A stretch of DNA of 64,000 nt, from the IMG/VR virus record IMGVR_UViG_3300028805_000073; one strand, written 5' to 3'. Made by a program: the position numbers and the translations under genes. The notes below the pieces were generated by a model. It worked only from the letters and a program-made list of their open reading frames with translations, was not told the origin of the DNA and ran no database searches. The stretch's first letter is position 1. Every line of letters starts with the position of its first letter. Positions 2 to 59,475 of this stretch are shown piece after piece. This stretch comes from a virus. Taxonomy: Duplodnaviria; Heunggongvirae; Uroviricota; Caudoviricetes.

Positions 2-397
2 ACTATGGTTCAAAGAAAGAATTATGAAAAATTTACTGTAAATGCTAAAGATGCTTCAGTATTTACAATGGATCCACAACTTGCATATCATATTAATCCT
101 GATAAAGCTGCTGCAATATTTGTAAAATATCGTAAGCCAATTGAAGAAATTGAAAATGGGTATATTCGTACATGTATTTATGAAGCCTATCGTACTTGTG
201 GAAATGCTTATACATCCGATTCTTTAATGAGTAATAGAGCAAAGTTTGAAGCTGATGTTCGTGCAAGACTTGAAAAATCATTAGCTGCTGAAGGTTTTAT
301 TGTTGATGAATTTACTAGTGCAATTACACCTCCACAATCACTTACAGAAATGATTGATGCCAAAAATAGGGCTAAAATGTATGGTCCACTTGCTTAA
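2..397 (+). CDS. SPFH/band-7 (prohibitin/HflKC-like) protein, 5' exon; partial (gene starts upstream of window; real 5' splice site probably ~340-390)
   Basis: ORF 5..397 has an SPFH-core-like sequence (KFEADVRARLEKSLAAEGFIVDEFTSAITPPQSLTEMIDAKNRAKM). No TAG. Frame stops at TAA 398-400, which lies inside the downstream intron. Confidence 0.55.
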   Translation, partial: TMVQRKNYEKFTVNAKDASVFTMDPQLAYHINPDKAAAIFVKYRKPIEEIENGYIRTCIYEAYRTCGNAYTSDSLMSNRAKFEADVRARLEKSLAAEGFIVDEFTSAITPPQSLTEMIDAKNRAKMYGPLA

Positions 398-1305
398 ACA
401 GCAAGTTAAAAACTCCTTTAATTTCTGGAAACTCCATATTTTTATTATTTTTATTTTTTGATATTTTAAGAATGAAAATAAATTTATTATGAAATAAAAT
501 ATAATAAATAGATAATTCTTTAAAAACAAAATTAAAAAATTAAAATTATGGACAACCAGAAGCCTACATTAAAAAATGCTTAGAAATATGTTATAGAACC
601 AGGAAAAACCTATGGTAACTATAAAGTTATTGAATCTACTATTATTCAAGGAAGAAAAAGTAGAGAAACAAGATGGATTTGTATATATCTGCCTACAGGA
701 GAACAGAAATTAAAAAGAGGAGCAGATTTAAAACAATTTTTAACTGGAGAAGAACAAGAGGAAGAGAATAAAAAATTAGTTGCAGAAAATAAACATCAAA
801 TGGGATTTAGAAACTATCTTTTTAGAACATCTAGAGATGGAGCTGAAAAGAGAAATCATGAGTTTAGACTAACCCAAGAAGAATTTGATGAAATTATTCA
901 AAAAGATTGCTACTACTGTGGAGAACATCCCAGACCAGCATCTAAAGAATTATTAGAAAAACGTGGAAATACTAAGCAACCAACATTTTATTATAACGGA
1001 ATTGATAGAATTGATTCTACAAAAGGATATTCTGTTGATAATTGTGTTCCATGTTGTCCTAAATGTAATTATATGAAAAATACTCTTTCTCAAAATGATT
1101 TTTATAAGCAGATTATCAAAATATATAATCATTTAAATTTAGGTTCAACGACTATCGAAAACACATCTAAATTAGATGGAAGTGAGTAGAGTACATCACA
1201 AGCTAATGGTGATGGAAACAAGGAGCACTCTAATATAGAGTGAAGATATAGTCTCAACTACTATGGTAACATAGTGCAGTTCATTAGAGAACGGATATAG
1301 TCTTG
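380..1305 (+). mobile_element. Group I intron (approximate ends) interrupting the SPFH gene and carrying an HNH homing-endonuclease ORF
   Basis: Conserved group I core elements occur in canonical order. P-like AATTTCTGGAAACTCC at 420-435. Q-like AACCAGAAGCC at 554-564. R-like GTTTAGACTAACCC at 862-875 (GACTA). S-like AAGATATAGTCT at 1243-1254, which matches the classical S consensus AAGATATAGTCC. Both flanks are halves of one SPFH protein, in different frames. Confidence 0.55.
548..1189 (+). CDS. HNH homing endonuclease (213 aa if started at ATG 548, with one in-frame TAG at 581-583; 129 aa if started at ATG 800 under the standard code)
   Basis: HNH motif near the C-terminus: CYYCGEHP...NGIDRIDSTKGYSVDNCVPCCPKCNYMKN. 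The frame is open from 548 to 1189 except for the single TAG. It overlaps the Q and R intron elements. Confidence 0.7.
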
Positions 1306-1584
1306 CGAACTATATTGAAGATATTGGTACAGGCTGCTTTGAAAGCAGAAAACGAAGTAAAAGAGGCTGAAGCTAACGCTAAAATTGCTGTGGCTAAAGC
1401 TAAGGGTAATGCAGATGCTATGAAGATTAAGGCTGATGGTGAAGCTTATTATAATCGTACTATTGCTGCATCATTAACTCAATATGTAGTAATGGAAGAT
1501 TGGATTGAAAAGTGGGATGGAAAGCTTCCTACTGTTCAAGGTGGTCAAGGTATGATGTTTGATATGTCTAAATTTGTAAAATAA
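1288..1584 (+). CDS. SPFH/band-7 protein, 3' exon (exact 3' splice site unknown, probably 1290-1330)
   Basis: The translation LKAENEVKEAEANAKIAVAKAKGNADAMKIKADGEAY...IEKWDGKLPTVQGG is the Ala/Glu-rich C-terminal tail typical of HflC/prohibitin. It lies immediately after the S element. The ORF finder had to use TTG as a start, which is consistent with this being an exon rather than an independent gene. Confidence 0.55.
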   Translation, partial: RTDIVLRTILKILVQAALKAENEVKEAEANAKIAVAKAKGNADAMKIKADGEAYYNRTIAASLTQYVVMEDWIEKWDGKLPTVQGGQGMMFDMSKFVK

Positions 1585-56439: not shown

Positions 56440-57800
56440 TTGTGTAACCTTCTTCCGTATAACCTCTTATGTCGCCATAAAAGACTGACTATATTATTAA
56501 TTATTCTAAATATTTATAAATATGTTGTTTATGAGTTCTATTTGTTCCTGCTAAAACCTTCCAAACAGATGTTCCGTTTTCTTTTTCAGCAGCTGTAGCA
56601 GATTCATATTCTTTTACAAGATTTCCTTGTAAATCATATTTACCTACTCTACGTTTTTTATTTATTCCTTTTGGAATATTATAATTTTCAAGTTTTTCTA
56701 ATGACCATAAATATCCGTTTTCATCTGGAGATTTAAATTTTATCGATTTTGTTATATTGGTTTTGCATTCTAATTCAGCTTCTTGTTGAGTTTCATATTC
56801 TTTATTAAAACTTCCATCAGAATTATATTTAAAAACTCGTCTGGATTTTATATATTCAGTTCTTGCTTTATCATAAGACTCTGCTTTTATATAAGATAAG
56901 TAATACTTATTATGTACACAATTTCCTAAAATACAAGCTTTTCTTATAGTAGTTGTTGCAATTCCTGATTTTCTTTCTGCTTCAGCTTGTGTTTTAAATC
57001 CTCCTAAATATTGTCCTTTTAAATTATAAAAATAAATTTTATTAGAATGATTTAATCCTAAATTATAATTAGTTAAATCTAATTTTTCTAATTTATCTGT
57101 AGACCAAAAATAATTTTTAGCTTTAGCTTTTTTTCTTACTGCATAAGAAATTAAAGTGTAATCACAATTTAATTGTAAAGCAGCATCAGCAAAACTTTCA
57201 TATTCATTTAAATAATTTCCATTTTCATCATATTGAAAAACTTTTATTCTTTGAGAGATTAAACATCCAGCAATTCCTCCTAATATCATATTATATACAT
57301 CTGAACGTTCTAAAAACTTTTCATTAACAATTTGTTCTTCTAAATCAGAAGCTTCTTCCAAAGTATTAAAAATAGCTAATGTTTTTCTTTTAAAATTCTT
57401 TGGACCATATTTTTTAACTGCTGCTTGAAAAGCTGTTTTAGCATACATATATGTATAAGGTTGTGTGGCTATTATTCCATTTCCTAAATAACCATCAAAA
57501 ATATCTGGATTTTCTGTTTTATGTAATCCCACATATATTTTTCCATTAATTAAATTTGTTGTTTCATAAACAATATATTTCCAATTTTTTTCCATATTTA
57601 ATATAATTATTTACTCTTTCGATAAAAATTATCTACTCCTTACGGATAGTCGATGAACCTTATTAATAATCCTCTGCTATATTAGAGTGAAAATTAATCT
57701 TGGCTTCTGATTATCTCCGAAGAGATTTCCCAGAAATTAAGTAAATTTTCTTAGTCAAATAATTTAAAATATTATTCTAACTAAGGCACAAAGTAATTTA
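56440..57800 (-). mobile_element. Group I intron (approximate ends) with a GIY-YIG homing endonuclease in P8, interrupting the putative capsid gene
   Basis: On the - strand: P AATTTCTGGGAAATCTC (57722-57738), Q AATCAGAAGCC (57702-57712), UUCG-tetraloop hairpin ATCTCTTCGGAGAT (57714-57727), R GGTTCATCGACTATCCG (57643-57659) with GNRA loop CCGTAAGG, then the endonuclease ORF, then S AATATAGTCAG (56485-56495). The order P-Q-R-ORF-S is canonical. Confidence 0.6.
56501..57595 (-). CDS. GIY-YIG homing endonuclease with three C-terminal DNA-binding repeats (364 aa)
   Basis: KYIVYETTNLINGKIYVGLHKT (GIY...YVG). Three ~45-aa repeats of the form YDENGNYLNEYESFADAA.../KYNSDGSFNKEYETQQEAE.../KYDLQGNLVKEYESATAAE... 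It is intact in the standard code, with zero TAG. Confidence 0.8.
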   Translation of the reverse strand: MEKNWKYIVYETTNLINGKIYVGLHKTENPDIFDGYLGNGIIATQPYTYMYAKTAFQAAVKKYGPKNFKRKTLAIFNTLEEASDLEEQIVNEKFLERSDVYNMILGGIAGCLISQRIKVFQYDENGNYLNEYESFADAALQLNCDYTLISYAVRKKAKAKNYFWSTDKLEKLDLTNYNLGLNHSNKIYFYNLKGQYLGGFKTQAEAERKSGIATTTIRKACILGNCVHNKYYLSYIKAESYDKARTEYIKSRRVFKYNSDGSFNKEYETQQEAELECKTNITKSIKFKSPDENGYLWSLEKLENYNIPKGINKKRRVGKYDLQGNLVKEYESATAAEKENGTSVWKVLAGTNRTHKQHIYKYLE

Positions 57801-58349: not shown

Positions 58350-59387
58350 TTATTCATCATCGTCATCTAAGTCATTTATTGTTGTATATGAACGATAATG
58401 TTGTGGTTTCGTATTGTTTTTCTTATTTGAATTATCTATTACTACAGTAGGTCTAGTTTGTACTCCTTTTTTCCCGTCTTCCAAACCTCTCTTATATTGG
58501 TTATCAGACACCAATTTTATCTATTGTGCGTAATAATCGGAAATACTATTAAGAGCCTCCTCACCATTAAGGATAAACCAAGCAGCTTTAGTTAAGGTTT
58601 CTGGATCTTGTAAGGCTTCAAAAAGATAGTTCTTTCCAGACTGATCTCTTGATAACATAAACTCAGCAAGTTCTTCTCTATCAGCATCCTCAAAGTTTAG
58701 ATCAAAGCTTCCAACAGAGTTAAAATTACTTATAGCGTCAATCACTTGAGACTAATATTCTTGAAATTGTTCAGCTTCTTTTTGTTCTCTTTGAGCTTGC
58801 TCTTGTTGAGCTTGTAAATCTTCTCTTTCTTTATACTCTTTACGAATTCCTTCTACTTGTTTCTTGAAAAATTCTTCGTTAGATTTAACAGTATTTAATG
58901 CCTAAACAGCTTCATCTTCACTTAATTCTCCAACTCTAGATTCTAAATCAAGTAAATATACTTCATCATCAGATAAATCATCTATTTTATACTATGGAGT
59001 AACTTCTACTTGTTCTCCCTTAATAGACTCTAAATATTCAACTGGAGATAATTTACTTTCTCTGATTTGATTTATTAAATTGATTTCATCTTCTGTTAAA
59101 TCATTATTGTTATTATCTTCTTGTTCTGTTTCTAAAGGCATATTTAAAATATTAACTTTTTCTTCATTGGATAAGTCATTCCAACTTCTTTCAACTAAAT
59201 TTCCATTTTCATCTTCAAAGTTAATTTTATTTAAATCATCTATACCTCTAGTTTTTAAAAAATCTGACATAAAATCTCCTTCAGACTCCTAACCAGCAGG
59301 TGGAGTTACGGGAGGTTCTTGAATTTCTTCCTATTGACCAGGTTCAAGAATGTCGTCATCATCTAAATCATCAATTCCTATTGCCAT
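58350..59387 (-). CDS. Scaffolding-like acidic coiled-coil protein (345 aa)
   Basis: Pieces 58992..59270 and 58521..58745 are joined by TAGs. Hand translation runs from ATG 59387 (MAIGIDDLDDDILEPGQQEE...) to ...DLDDDE*. It is acidic, with an EEDLQAQQEQAQREQKEAEQ heptad region. Confidence 0.5.
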
Positions 59388-59475
59388 ATTTATTATATTT
59401 TTAATTAAATTGAAAACAATAAAGTTTCATATTAAAAATACTACTCCTTTATTGTTTTCAAAAAATTTTTATTTA

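What the first reader, a model, noticed from the sequence alone, without database searches (positions are those of the whole stretch)
380..1584. Second group I intron with an HNH endonuclease, inside a phage-encoded SPFH/band-7 gene
The sequences on either side (2..397 and ~1290..1584) together make one prohibitin/HflC-like protein, but they are in different frames. Between them lie P-like (420-435), Q-like (554-564), R-like (862-875) and S (1243-1254, AAGATATAGTCT) elements and an HNH ORF. The endonuclease ORF appears to overlap the Q and R core elements, which is unusual. An SPFH gene carried by a phage is itself uncommon.
Basis: partly seen in the sequence, partly recalled or inferred. Interest (0 to 1): 0.7.

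Follow-up and report, generated by a model that had tools for sequence, protein, structure and literature searches.

The report
Mobile group I intron splitting phage SPFH gene
A 953-base self-splicing group I intron carrying its own HNH homing-endonuclease gene interrupts the SPFH (band-7) gene of a crAss-like gut phage that reads TAG as glutamine; it is a solid but ordinary new member of a large, well-known family of phage introns.

Summary
The intron is 374..1326 (953 nt), not about 398..1290. Nine uninterrupted SPFH homologues fix the exon join at AKNRA|VQAALKAENE. U373 precedes the 5' splice site and G1326 ends the intron. P1 and P10 each have 5 pairs and flank exactly that junction.

All helices P1 to P9.2 can be drawn. 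The intron is subgroup IA-like, with P7.1 and P7.2. Its R (862-875) is wrong; the real R is GGTTCAACGACTATC at 1142-1156.

Rfam misses the intron at gathering score because of two inserts, 110 nt in L5 and 573 nt in L6. With the inserts removed it is 81% identical to a Bacillus phage AR9 terminase intron that passes RF00028. A covariance model built without this window scores 159.5 bits here.

The HNH gene fills the P6 loop. Its start codon lies in P5, and its end lies in the P7.1/P7.2 linker or in P8. It has two in-frame TAG codons. The phage recodes TAG, and the first TAG aligns with Gln in most homologues, so the enzyme can probably be made only when TAG is suppressed.

ORF/core overlap, introns in crAss-like phages, recoded intron endonucleases and phage SPFH genes are all already described. 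Verdict: new member of a known kind, low-to-moderate interest.

The parts
2..373 (+). SPFH/band-7 gene, exon 1. It is partial because the 5' end is cut by the window start. It ends ...MIDAKNRA with U373 as the last exon base.
   Evidence: Pfam Band_7 E=2.4e-11. phrog_200 positions 146-273. Junction fixed by 9 uninterrupted homologues.
374..1326 (+). Group I intron, 953 nt, subgroup IA-like with P7.1 and P7.2. It ends with omega-G at 1326.
   Evidence: Exon join. All nested helices recovered in the MFE fold of the intron without its two inserts. 81% identity to AR9 terL intron 1, which passes RF00028. CM hits.
369..387 (+). P1: exon GGGCU (369-373) pairs with the internal guide GGUCC (383-387), with a U373.G383 wobble at the 5' splice site. 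The guide's 5' part, UGUAU (378-382), forms P10 with exon 2, GUACA (1327-1331).
   Evidence: Direct reading and pair check. Compensatory G-C to A-U change in P1 of L134; P10 kept in L134 and L135.
389..405 (+). P2 hairpin (389-394 / 400-405).
413..418 (+). P3 5' strand CUCCUU. It pairs with AAGGAG at 1220-1225.
   Evidence: Present in the MFE. Four of the six pairs are changed on both sides in L135.
423..437 (+).
   Evidence: P4 pairs with 556-561 and P5 with 548-552. Family variants ttctgg/ccagaa, tgctgg/tcagca and tgcggg/tccgca. P5 U-A to A-U in L135.
438..547 (+). L5 insert, 110 nt and very A+T-rich. It is absent from the compact relatives. Function unknown.
   Evidence: Comparison with AR9 intron 1 and cr50_1. 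About 65% identical to L134.
548..1243 (+). HNH (beta-beta-alpha-metal, PacI-like) homing endonuclease ORF, 231 codons if TAG is read as Gln. ATG 548 lies in P5 3'. In-frame TAG codons are at 581-583 and 1187-1189, and TGA is at 1241-1243. In the standard code only ATG 800..TAG 1189 is open.
   Evidence: phrog_1035, phrog_3322 and phrog_3118. 521 homologues. TAG codon 12 aligns with Q in most homologues shown. 19 synonymous vs 4 non-synonymous codon changes in codons 1-84 against L134. PacI 3LDY E=1.9e-4.
548..566 (+). All of it lies inside the first 7 codons (MDNQKPT) of the endonuclease ORF.
   Evidence: N3 and Q4 are invariant in homologues.
1140..1156 (+). P6 3' (1140-1144), J6/7 and P7 5' (1150-1155): the true R element, GGUUCAACGACUAUC. 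It also encodes GSTTI of the endonuclease.
   Evidence: Invariant in the family. Exact motif in more than 120 viral contigs. P7 99% paired.
1164..1214 (+). P7.1 (1164-1169/1173-1178), the conserved linker GAAGUGAGUAGAGUAC that holds TAG 1187-1189, and P7.2 (1194-1199/1209-1214).
1220..1254 (+). P3 3' (1220-1225), P8 hairpin (1226-1232/1236-1242), and J8/7 plus P7 3', AAGAUAUAGUCU (1243-1254, the S element; P7 3' is 1248-1253).
   Evidence: Rfam partial alignment. Covariation in P8.
1260..1316 (+). P9 (1260-1265/1270-1275, GUAA loop), P9.1 (1279-1282/1289-1292) and P9.2 (1294-1301/1309-1316). The second 'GGATATAGTCT' at 1293-1303 is only the 5' strand of P9.2.
   Evidence: Covariation: P9 98.8%, P9.1 98.6% and P9.2 90.7% of cells paired, with double changes in every pair. 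RNAalifold finds the same helices.
1327..1584 (+). SPFH exon 2 (VQAALKAENE...SKFVK, TAA at 1582-1584).
   Evidence: phrog_200 positions 274-361. Homologue alignment.

Best explanation
Window 374-1326 is a mobile group I intron inserted in the SPFH/band-7 gene of a TAG-recoded crAss-like phage. The intron belongs to the large phage family that shares the R motif GGUUCAACGACUAUCGAAA and the S motif GAAGAUAUAGUCU.

Inferred mechanism. The pre-mRNA folds into the ribozyme. A guanosine cofactor attacks after U373, which sits in the U.G pair of P1. The freed exon 1 is then held next to exon 2 by P10 and attacks after omega-G1326. This restores the reading frame ...AKNRA-VQAALKAENE....

The P6 loop holds a 231-codon HNH-type endonuclease gene. 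Its first codons are the P5'/J5/4/P4'/P6 strands and its last codons are P6'/J6/7/P7/P7.1, extending to P8 when TAG is read through. Its product would cut or nick intron-less SPFH alleles of co-infecting related phages, and repair would copy the intron in (homing).

Codon 12 is TAG and the start codon is paired in P5. The enzyme is therefore probably made only once the phage's TAG suppressor is active, that is late in infection.

Shown here: the anatomy, the in-frame join, the family membership, covariation, presence/absence among relatives, and purifying selection across the TAG.

Inferred, not tested: catalysis, homing, the enzyme's target site, and the timing of expression.
For: - **Exact junction.** Nine uninterrupted homologues (58-86% aa identity over the spliced protein) read AKNxA|VQxALKAEN with no gap at 373|1327.
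- **Splice-site signals.** U373 and G1326, P1 with 5 bp including the U.G pair, and P10 with 5 bp directly 5' of the P1 guide.
- **Fold.** All helices P1-P9.2 are standard pairs. The MFE of the intron without its L5 and L6 inserts recovers every nested helix, including P3; only P7, which forms a pseudoknot with P3, cannot appear in a nested fold.
- **Family membership.** blastn of 1141-1330 hits introns in AR9/PBS1, Vibrio, Clostridium and crAss-like phages. The insert-free intron is 81% identical to AR9 terL intron 1. Compact relatives score 70-98 bits on RF00028 against a gathering score of 50. The window itself gives RF00028 36.5 bits, E=2e-7.
- **Independent model.** CM R2, built without the window, scores 159.5 bits, E~8e-43.
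- **Covariation.** On 143 distinct family members, 92.8% of cells are paired against 30-43% when partners are slid, and 32 of 37 pairs show double changes.
- **Same intron elsewhere.** The same intron sits at the same SPFH site in L134 and L135-137, with compensatory changes in P1, P3, P5, P6, P8 and P9.2.
- **Endonuclease.** PHROG HNH and endonuclease VII families with E down to 3e-22, 521 homologues, PacI-like HNH core.
- **TAG read as Gln.** The window's minus-strand ORFs need TAG read-through, with up to 82 in-frame TAG per ORF. TAG codon 12 aligns with Q in most homologues shown. L135 has a TAG where the window has CAA. Codons 1-84 show 19 synonymous vs 4 non-synonymous changes against L134.
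Against: - No experiment: splicing, cleavage and homing are all inferred.
- Rfam finds nothing in the window at gathering score, and only 36.5 bits (gathering score 50) in a focused search. The 110-nt L5 and 573-nt L6 inserts explain this, but it remains a formal failure of the curated threshold.
- No suppressor tRNA lies in this 64 kb window, so TAG=Gln rests on ORF structure and homologue alignments.
- The covariation alignment A3 was fitted to the model's structure, which inflates the percentage paired.
- P7 and the linker motifs are invariant and so give no covariation evidence.
- The endonuclease lacks a significant Pfam HNH hit (E=0.2).
Confidence: 0.92

Rival explanations
1. A decayed, no longer splicing intron or endonuclease insertion has split the SPFH gene. 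The gene would then be a pseudogene, or be expressed as two separate polypeptides, with exon 2 started from TTG 1303.
For: Rfam gathering score not reached. The large L5 and L6 inserts might hinder folding. An in-frame TTG at 1303 exists upstream of exon 2. Split genes caused by homing-endonuclease insertions are known in phages (own knowledge).
Against: Every core helix and every invariant family motif is intact. The window's 3' domain is the third highest of 148 family hits with model R1, although it was one of that model's 12 seed sequences; the independent model R2 still gives 159.5 bits. Diverged copies of the intron at the same site keep their helices through compensatory changes. Both exons stay open and are 84-86% identical to intact homologues.
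Confidence: 0.05
2. The intron is real but its endonuclease gene is crippled. In the standard code only ATG 800..TAG 1189 (129 aa) is open, so the N-terminal domain is lost and the intron is no longer mobile.
For: The host gene and its + strand neighbours contain no TAG codon, so this block might be expressed before any suppressor is available. No suppressor tRNA is seen in the window. Defunct intron endonucleases are known, for example I-TevIII (PMC2790892, title).
Against: Codons 1-84, upstream of ATG 800, show 19 synonymous vs 4 non-synonymous changes between window and L134, with 20 of 27 differences at third positions. The TAG aligns with Gln in most homologues shown. Homologues cover 100% of the 213-aa query. 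TAG and CAA interchange at Gln positions between window and L135.
Confidence: 0.1
3. A free-standing HNH homing endonuclease gene sits between two independent genes, with no ribozyme, and the core-like motifs are chance.
For: The motif AAGATATAGTCY with one mismatch occurs at chance frequency in the window (3 found, 2.1 expected).
Against: 159.5 bits with an independent structural model against 13.9 for the next hit. 81% identity to an RF00028-positive intron. P1 and P10 sit at the junction that protein homology defines independently.
Confidence: 0.01

Closest known systems
Group I introns of the Bacillus phage AR9/PBS1 terminase large-subunit gene (four introns; annotated as a 5-piece join in KU878088)
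   Same: Same ribozyme family. The insert-free window intron is 81% identical to AR9 intron 1. It shares the stretch aaactcctttaatttctggaa, the R and S motifs, P7.1/P7.2, P9-P9.2 and the GAAGAUAnUG 3' end. The AR9 introns pass RF00028 at 70.6-92.7 bits.
   Different: The AR9 copies are compact and have no ORF in P6. They lie in terL of a Bacillus jumbo phage that uses the standard code. The window intron carries a 110-nt L5 insert and a 573-nt L6 holding an HNH gene.
Phage T4 td intron with I-TevI (subgroup IA2)
   Same: The endonuclease ORF sits in the P6 loop and its 3' end runs into P6a/P7, as described in PMC3073962. Both are phage protein-gene introns, and expression of the endonuclease is restrained by RNA structure at its start. 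In T4 the RBS is sequestered; here the AUG is paired in P5, which is an inference.
   Different: I-TevI is a GIY-YIG enzyme; this one is HNH/PacI-like. The overlap here is at both ends: 19 nt at the 5' end, and 50 nt (to TAG) or 104 nt (to TGA) at the 3' end. The host gene and the genetic code also differ.
HNH-bearing intron of crAss-like phage cr50_1 (Suoliviridae; NC_055868, 54.2-56.0 kb)
   Same: A crAss-like phage with a homologous HNH enzyme (43% identity over the catalytic half) in the P6 loop of an intron of the same family. The ORF reads through R in the same frame, as SSTTI. R1 hit of 123 bits.
   Different: It lies in a different host gene, an AAA/nucleotide-binding protein. It lacks P7.1. 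Its ORF starts after P4' and ends in the S element. The N-terminal domain is a different zinc-finger type. No in-frame TAG is needed.
Recoded intron endonuclease of 'Agate' phages (Borges et al., bioRxiv 10.1101/2021.08.26.457843) and recoded intron ORFs of Delta/Zeta crAss-like phages (Yutin et al. 2021, PMC7886860)
   Same: An intron endonuclease carries in-frame reassigned stop codons while sitting in a gene that lacks them. The published reading is that this delays endonuclease production until late infection. crAss-like phages with dense group I introns and recoded intron ORFs are described.
   Different: [quoted passage not shown] An SPFH host gene is not mentioned: 'SPFH' occurs 0 times in PMC7886860.
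Restriction endonuclease PacI (PDB 3LDY) as the nearest solved relative of the nuclease domain
   Same: Shares the CxxC...G(I/V)DR(I/S)DS..GY...N...C..CN..K zinc-bound beta-beta-alpha-metal core (profile E=1.9e-4).
   Different: PacI is a 142-aa restriction enzyme. The intron protein has an extra ~90-aa N-terminal domain, presumably for DNA binding, and an intron context.

Membership tests
Group I intron (Rfam RF00028) | Score at or above the curated gathering threshold (50 bits) | tested here: not met
   No hit at gathering score. 36.5 bits, E=2e-7, covering only P8-S-P9 correctly. The same failure occurs for the ORF-bearing relatives L134 and L135, while compact relatives score 70-98 bits. 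The cause is the L5 and L6 inserts, not the absence of a core.
Group I intron (Rfam RF00028) | Conserved core helices P3-P9 in canonical order, with the P3/P7 pseudoknot and P4-P6 domain | tested here: met
   P3 413-418/1220-1225, P4 423-428/556-561, P5 433-437/548-552, P6 562-566/1140-1144, P7 1150-1155/1248-1253, P8 and P9 are all standard pairs. Covariation on 143 distinct sequences and in same-site relatives.
Group I intron (Rfam RF00028) | U.G wobble at the 5' splice site in P1, terminal G (omega-G) at the 3' end, and an internal guide that also pairs with the 3' exon (P10) | tested here: met
   U373.G383, G1326, and P10 378-382/1327-1331. The junction position was fixed independently by nine intron-less homologues.
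Group I intron (Rfam RF00028) | Self-splicing with a guanosine cofactor | not testable with these tools
   Needs in-vitro transcription and splicing, or RNA data.
Subgroup IA (IA2-like) phage introns | Extra P7.1/P7.2 hairpins between P7 5' and P3 3', and P9.1/P9.2 extensions | tested here: met
   P7.1 1164-1178, P7.2 1194-1214, P9.1 1279-1292, P9.2 1294-1316. In the Rfam alignment of relative L086 this region is an insert between P7 and P3'. No formal subgroup classifier was run.
HNH (beta-beta-alpha-metal) homing endonucleases | HNH/beta-beta-alpha-metal catalytic core with zinc-binding cysteines | tested here: inconclusive
   Pfam HNH only E=0.2, below threshold. PHROG HNH and endonuclease VII families E=3e-22 to 8e-15. 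A profile of 19 homologues hits the HNH restriction enzyme PacI at E=1.9e-4. The motif CYYCG...GIDRIDS..GY..N..CC..CN..K is conserved. No structure was predicted.
HNH (beta-beta-alpha-metal) homing endonucleases | Site-specific cleavage or nicking of the intron-less allele, and homing | not testable with these tools
   Indirect only. The closest SPFH homologues found in IMG/VR (84-86% aa, L003-L006) lack the intron. More diverged phages (L135-137) carry it at the same site.
SPFH / band-7 proteins (Pfam PF01145) | Match to the Band_7 profile above the gathering score | tested here: met
   Spliced product 45.6 bits against a cut-off of 23.6, E=1e-11. phrog_200 is matched continuously across the junction.
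TAG-recoded crAss-like phages | Long ORFs only if TAG is sense; crAss-like gene content; suppressor tRNA | tested here: inconclusive
   Summed length of ORFs of at least 100 aa on both strands rises from 43% to 116% of the window length when TAG is sense, with ORFs up to 3585 aa holding 82 TAG. The nearest SPFH and HNH relatives are crAss-like phages. No tRNA in the window. No megablast match to any deposited phage. The family was not assigned.

The most novel reading that the evidence does not exclude
The code switch of the phage is built into the intron's life cycle in two ways.

1. A TAG at codon 12, together with an AUG locked in P5, would keep the homing endonuclease silent until the late TAG suppressor appears. 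The SPFH mRNA could then splice undisturbed early, and homing would be confined to late infection.

2. In the window, L134, L063, L105 and the L135 group, the endonuclease's natural stop is the TAG inside the invariant ribozyme linker GAGUAGAGUAC. Recoding abolishes that stop and lengthens the protein by 18 residues encoded by P7.2, P3' and P8. This would be 'core creep' caused by a genetic-code change rather than by a point mutation.

In all three phage lineages that carry this SPFH intron, the host gene is TAG-free while the endonuclease gene has two TAG codons.
Probability: 0.4. Interest if true: 0.5.

Novelty: new member of a known kind. Interest (0 to 1): 0.3.

Why it matters
Mainly for annotation. 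The SPFH gene of this phage and of its relatives L134 and L135-137 should be annotated as one spliced gene, with exon 1 ending at 373 joined to 1327..1584 in window coordinates. The endonuclease is a 231-codon TAG-containing ORF, not a 129-codon fragment.

The case also shows why Rfam's RF00028 misses ORF-bearing phage introns. It supplies a family-specific model and an anchor motif, TTCAACGACTATCGAAA, that finds more than 120 relatives in IMG/VR.

The pairing of a TAG-free host gene with a TAG-gated endonuclease recurs in three lineages. That makes it a clean natural test case for the published idea that stop-codon recoding times the expression of selfish and late genes.

It adds SPFH to the list of phage genes targeted by homing introns, at the most conserved motif of the protein (AKNxAVQxALKAEN).

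Tried and rejected
- **Rfam on the whole window.** At gathering score and at E<=0.1 it found nothing. Only a focused 1.15-kb search gave the partial RF00028 hit.
Rejected. 'agacta' there can pair with S, but the family alignment places R at 1142-1156, and 862-875 lies in the middle of the conserved HNH coding region.
- **The second copy 'GGATATAGTCT' (1293-1303).** I first suspected a duplicated S element or an alternative 3' end. The family alignment shows it is the variable 5' strand of hairpin P9.2, and other members have unrelated sequences there that covary with the 3' strand.
- **Alternative 3' splice site at G1317.** It is in frame and would add KIL. It has no P10 pairing, and homologues have no 3-residue insert. 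Rejected.
- **Splice at G1276, the end of the Rfam model.** It would need TAG 1285-1287 read through and would add a 17-residue insert (20 extra residues for the 3 it replaces) that is absent from all homologues. Rejected.
- **My first P3 coordinates (410-415).** These were an indexing error, caught by the pair check, and corrected to 413-418.
- **Megablast of 24 kb of the window against deposited phages.** No match, so the phage itself could not be named.
- **ARAGORN.** No tRNA in the window, so the suppressor was not found.
- **NCBIfam.** It gave nothing useful for the endonuclease.
- **The AR9 genome paper (PMC13189113).** Not held, so I could not check whether AR9 intron splicing was verified experimentally.
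- **One literature search.** It failed on a term that was too short.
Full report
**1. What is in the sequence**

The window is 28% G+C. It makes long ORFs only if TAG is a sense codon. With TAG recoded, the summed length of stop-to-stop ORFs of at least 100 aa on both strands rises from 43% to 116% of the window length. The minus strand then becomes a continuous row of genes up to 3585 aa, each with dozens of in-frame TAG codons. This is the signature of TAG-recoded crAss-like phages described by Yutin et al. 2021 (PMC7886860).

The nearest relatives of the genes studied here are crAss-like phages: cr126_1, cr128_1, cr50_1, cr53_1 and IAS virus. No deposited phage matches at the DNA level.

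The finding lies on the + strand at the window's left edge. An ORF runs off the start of the window to TAA 395-397 in frame 2. A second reading frame is open from 1288 to TAA 1582-1584 in frame 1. Between them is an ORF with HNH-like motifs.

**2. The two halves are one SPFH gene, and the junction is exact**

The first half matches Pfam Band_7 (E=2.4e-11). The two halves match adjoining parts of PHROG family 200, profile positions 146-273 and 274-361.

A tblastn search found 378 phage records with homologues, 369 of them matched over at least 80% of the query in one place. Phage SPFH genes are therefore common.

I checked nine homologues directly: MT836585, cr126_1 and seven IMG/VR contigs, at 58-86% identity for the IMG/VR set. 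All read straight through ...AKNxA|VQxALKAEN.... The window gives ...AKNRA from codons ending at 373 and VQAALKAENE... from 1327, with no residue missing or added.

The intron is therefore 374-1326, which is 953 nt (3x317+2), and this explains the frame shift. The last exon base is U373 and the last intron base is G1326.

**3. Ribozyme anatomy (window coordinates)**

| Element | Coordinates | Note |
|---|---|---|
| P1 | 369-373 / 383-387 | GGGCU/GGUCC, with the U373.G383 wobble |
| P10 | 378-382 / 1327-1331 | UGUAU/GUACA, immediately 5' of the P1 guide |
| P2 | 389-394 / 400-405 | |
| P3 | 413-418 / 1220-1225 | |
| P4 | 423-428 / 556-561 | |
| P5 | 433-437 / 548-552 | 110-nt A+T-rich loop, 438-547 |
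| P6 | 562-566 / 1140-1144 | 573-nt loop holding the ORF |
| J6/7 + P7 | 1150-1155 / 1248-1253 | |
| P7.1 | 1164-1169 / 1173-1178 | |
| P7.2 | 1194-1199 / 1209-1214 | |
| P8 | 1226-1232 / 1236-1242 | |
| P9 | 1260-1265 / 1270-1275 | GUAA loop |
| P9.1 | 1279-1282 / 1289-1292 | |
| P9.2 | 1294-1301 / 1309-1316 | |
| omega-G | 1326 | |

All pairs are standard. I replaced the two long loops by GAAA and folded the result without constraints. The minimum-energy structure contains every nested helix of this list, including P3 (CUCCUU/AAGGAG). The only exception is P7, which forms a pseudoknot with P3 and cannot appear in a nested fold.

Its R (862-875) is not. The real R is GGUUCAACGACUAUC at 1142-1156. 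The apparent second S copy at 1293-1303 is just one strand of P9.2.

**4. Family membership and statistics**

Rfam gives nothing at gathering score. A focused search gives RF00028 at 36.5 bits, E=2e-7, with only P8, S and P9 aligned correctly.

The reason is the two inserts. ORF-bearing relatives (L134, L135) also fail. Compact relatives pass at 70.6-98.4 bits; these include all four introns of the AR9 terminase gene. Without its inserts the window intron is 81% identical to AR9 intron 1 over 259 positions.

blastn of 1141-1330 hits 130 phage records, from Bacillus, Vibrio, Clostridium, Staphylococcus, Flavobacterium and crAss-like phages, and the matches end at 1322-1330. The R motif TTCAACGACTATCGAAA occurs in more than 120 IMG/VR contigs.

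A covariance model of the 3' domain (R1) found 148 members. On that alignment 92.8% of cells are paired, against 30-43% when the 3' partners are slid by 1-3 columns. 32 of 37 pairs show changes on both sides, and no shuffle reached the covariation score. The alignment was fitted to the model, so the percentage paired is somewhat inflated, and P7 is invariant.

As a control free of circularity I built a second model from 11 relatives without the window sequence, using an automatically derived RNAalifold structure. It scores 159.5 bits (E~8e-43) at 1138-1328. The next best hit in the window scores 13.9 bits.

**5. The same intron in related phages**

The closest endonuclease homologue (P0001, 88% identity) and the next (P0002, 62%) lie on contigs L134 and L135-137. 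There they sit between a Band_7 ORF and an 87-residue ORF, which is the same arrangement as in the window.

Alignment shows the same insertion point...AKNRA|VQAAL in L134 and ...EKNAA|IQSAL in L135. Compensatory changes occur in these helices:
- P1: G-C to A-U
- P3: four of the six pairs changed on both sides in L135
- P5: U-A to A-U
- P6: C-G to A-U
- P8
- P9.2

P10 is also kept.

The closest SPFH homologues found in IMG/VR (84-86% aa, L003-L006) have no intron. This presence/absence pattern is what a homing element produces, although homing itself is not shown.

**6. The endonuclease gene**

In the standard code only ATG 800..TAG 1189 (129 aa) is open. With TAG read as Gln the ORF is ATG 548..TGA 1243 (231 codons), with TAG at codons 12 and 214.

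Evidence that the long form is real:
- Homologues cover 100% of a 213-residue query.
- 12 of 18 aligned homologues begin M(D/E/G)NQ at the corresponding methionine; in the others the same NQ motif lies a few residues into the called protein.
- Codon 12 aligns with Q in 13 of 18.
- L134 has TAG at the same two codons. L135 has a TAG where the window has CAA.
- Between window and L134, codons 1-84 differ at 27 nucleotides, 20 of them at third positions, giving 19 synonymous and 4 non-synonymous codon changes.

The catalytic half matches PHROG HNH and endonuclease VII families (E=3e-22 to 8e-15). As a profile it matches the HNH restriction enzyme PacI (3LDY, E=1.9e-4). The Pfam HNH match is only E=0.2, so I call it HNH-type with that reservation.

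**7. ORF/ribozyme overlap**

The first seven codons (MDNQKPT) are P5 3', J5/4, P4 3' and P6 5'. The codons GSTTIE are P6 3', J6/7 and P7 5'. The TAG at 1187-1189 lies inside the family-invariant linker GAGUAGAGUAC. The TGA at 1241-1243 spans the last two bases of P8 and the first base of J8/7.

The same frame through R is used by the homologous ORFs in L134, L063, L105 and cr50_1. In window, L134, L063 and L105 the first standard stop is this same linker TAG.

Such overlap was reviewed and named 'core creep' by Edgell, Chalamcharla and Belfort (PMC3073962). Their examples include T4 td/I-TevI (20 nt into P6a/P7) and a B. thuringiensis nrdF intron (56 nt through P7.1a). The overlap is therefore real but not unusual. 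What is particular here is that recoding of TAG would push the ORF 18 codons further, through P7.2, P3' and P8.

**8. How it most likely works**

Inferred from the established group I mechanism, the RNA folds and guanosine attacks after U373. Exon 1 then attacks after G1326 while it is aligned by P10, and the SPFH frame is restored.

The endonuclease gene has its AUG paired in P5 and a TAG at codon 12. The SPFH exons (here and in L135) and the neighbouring + strand ORFs contain no TAG. The simplest reading is the one Borges et al. proposed for a TGA-recoded intron endonuclease in an early gene of Agate phages (bioRxiv 10.1101/2021.08.26.457843). On that reading the enzyme is made only after the suppressor tRNA appears late in infection, and it then cuts intron-less alleles of co-infecting relatives. 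No suppressor tRNA lies in this window, so this step is inference.

**9. Comparison with what is known, and verdict**

Four things are already published or abundantly present in databases:
- group I introns with HNH, GIY-YIG or LAGLIDADG genes in phages;
- their density in Delta and Zeta crAss-like phages;
- recoded intron ORFs;
- phage SPFH genes.

The paper on crAss-like introns does not mention SPFH as a host gene. I found no deposited phage record with this intron: among the listed top tblastn matches the SPFH gene is a single uninterrupted piece. The intron does occur in unannotated metagenome contigs (L134-L137).

This is a new member of a known kind. It is well supported and useful for annotation, and it carries a modestly interesting link between code switching and endonuclease expression. 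Interest 0.3.

Noticed in passing
The 5' half is compact: ttaatttctgggaaatctcttcggagataatcagaagccaag...ggttcatcgactatcc, giving P4/P5/P4'/P6/R at about 57,745-57,645. It is followed by a 364-codon GIY-YIG-type homing endonuclease ORF (ATG 57595 to stop 56501; phrog_314 E=1.7e-21) with no in-frame TAG. Then come an S-like AATAATATAGTCA (~56,499-56,487) and a P9 hairpin. The flanking ORFs (58339-57764 and 56500-55565) would be the exons of a ~500-aa protein with no PHROG hit. Neither Rfam nor models R1/R2 detect the intron (R2 gives 8.9 bits at 57581-57663).
   Followed up: partly
whole window, minus strand 2541-63999: TAG is a sense codon. The ORFs include ones of 1179, 1204, 1507, 1667, 1759, 2881 and 3585 aa with 15-82 in-frame TAG each. 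The three intact + strand ORFs at the left end (SPFH exons, 1584-1889, 2044-2490) have none. No tRNA gene lies in the 64 kb, so the suppressor must be elsewhere in the genome.
   Followed up: partly
window 438-547: A 110-nt, almost pure A+T insert in the P5 loop, directly upstream of the endonuclease start codon. It is absent from compact relatives and about 65% identical in L134. It might hold the endonuclease's own (late?) promoter, as in T4 introns. It was not tested, because the available promoter scan covers only sigma-70-type sites, not Bacteroidota-type ones.
   Followed up: no
L135 807-1049 (ENA ERZ932213 contig), upstream of the intron-bearing SPFH gene: The related phage encodes a protein with a Pfam Acb2_Tad1_hairpin hit (anti-CBASS/anti-Thoeris sponge family) and a CTP_transf_like protein in the same gene block as SPFH. 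This suggests the block is an early, host-takeover or counter-defence module.
   Followed up: no
window 58637-58801, minus strand: Weak hit of the independent intron 3'-domain model R2 (13.9 bits, E~0.04) inside ORF 58350-59426. It is probably chance and was not examined.
   Followed up: no
window 1144-1146 with 1317-1319: RNAalifold on the family alignment proposes a 3-bp long-range pairing between UUC of the R element and the GAA just after P9.2. Both sides are invariant, so there is no covariation evidence. It could be a P9.0-like or tertiary contact, or an artefact.
   Followed up: no
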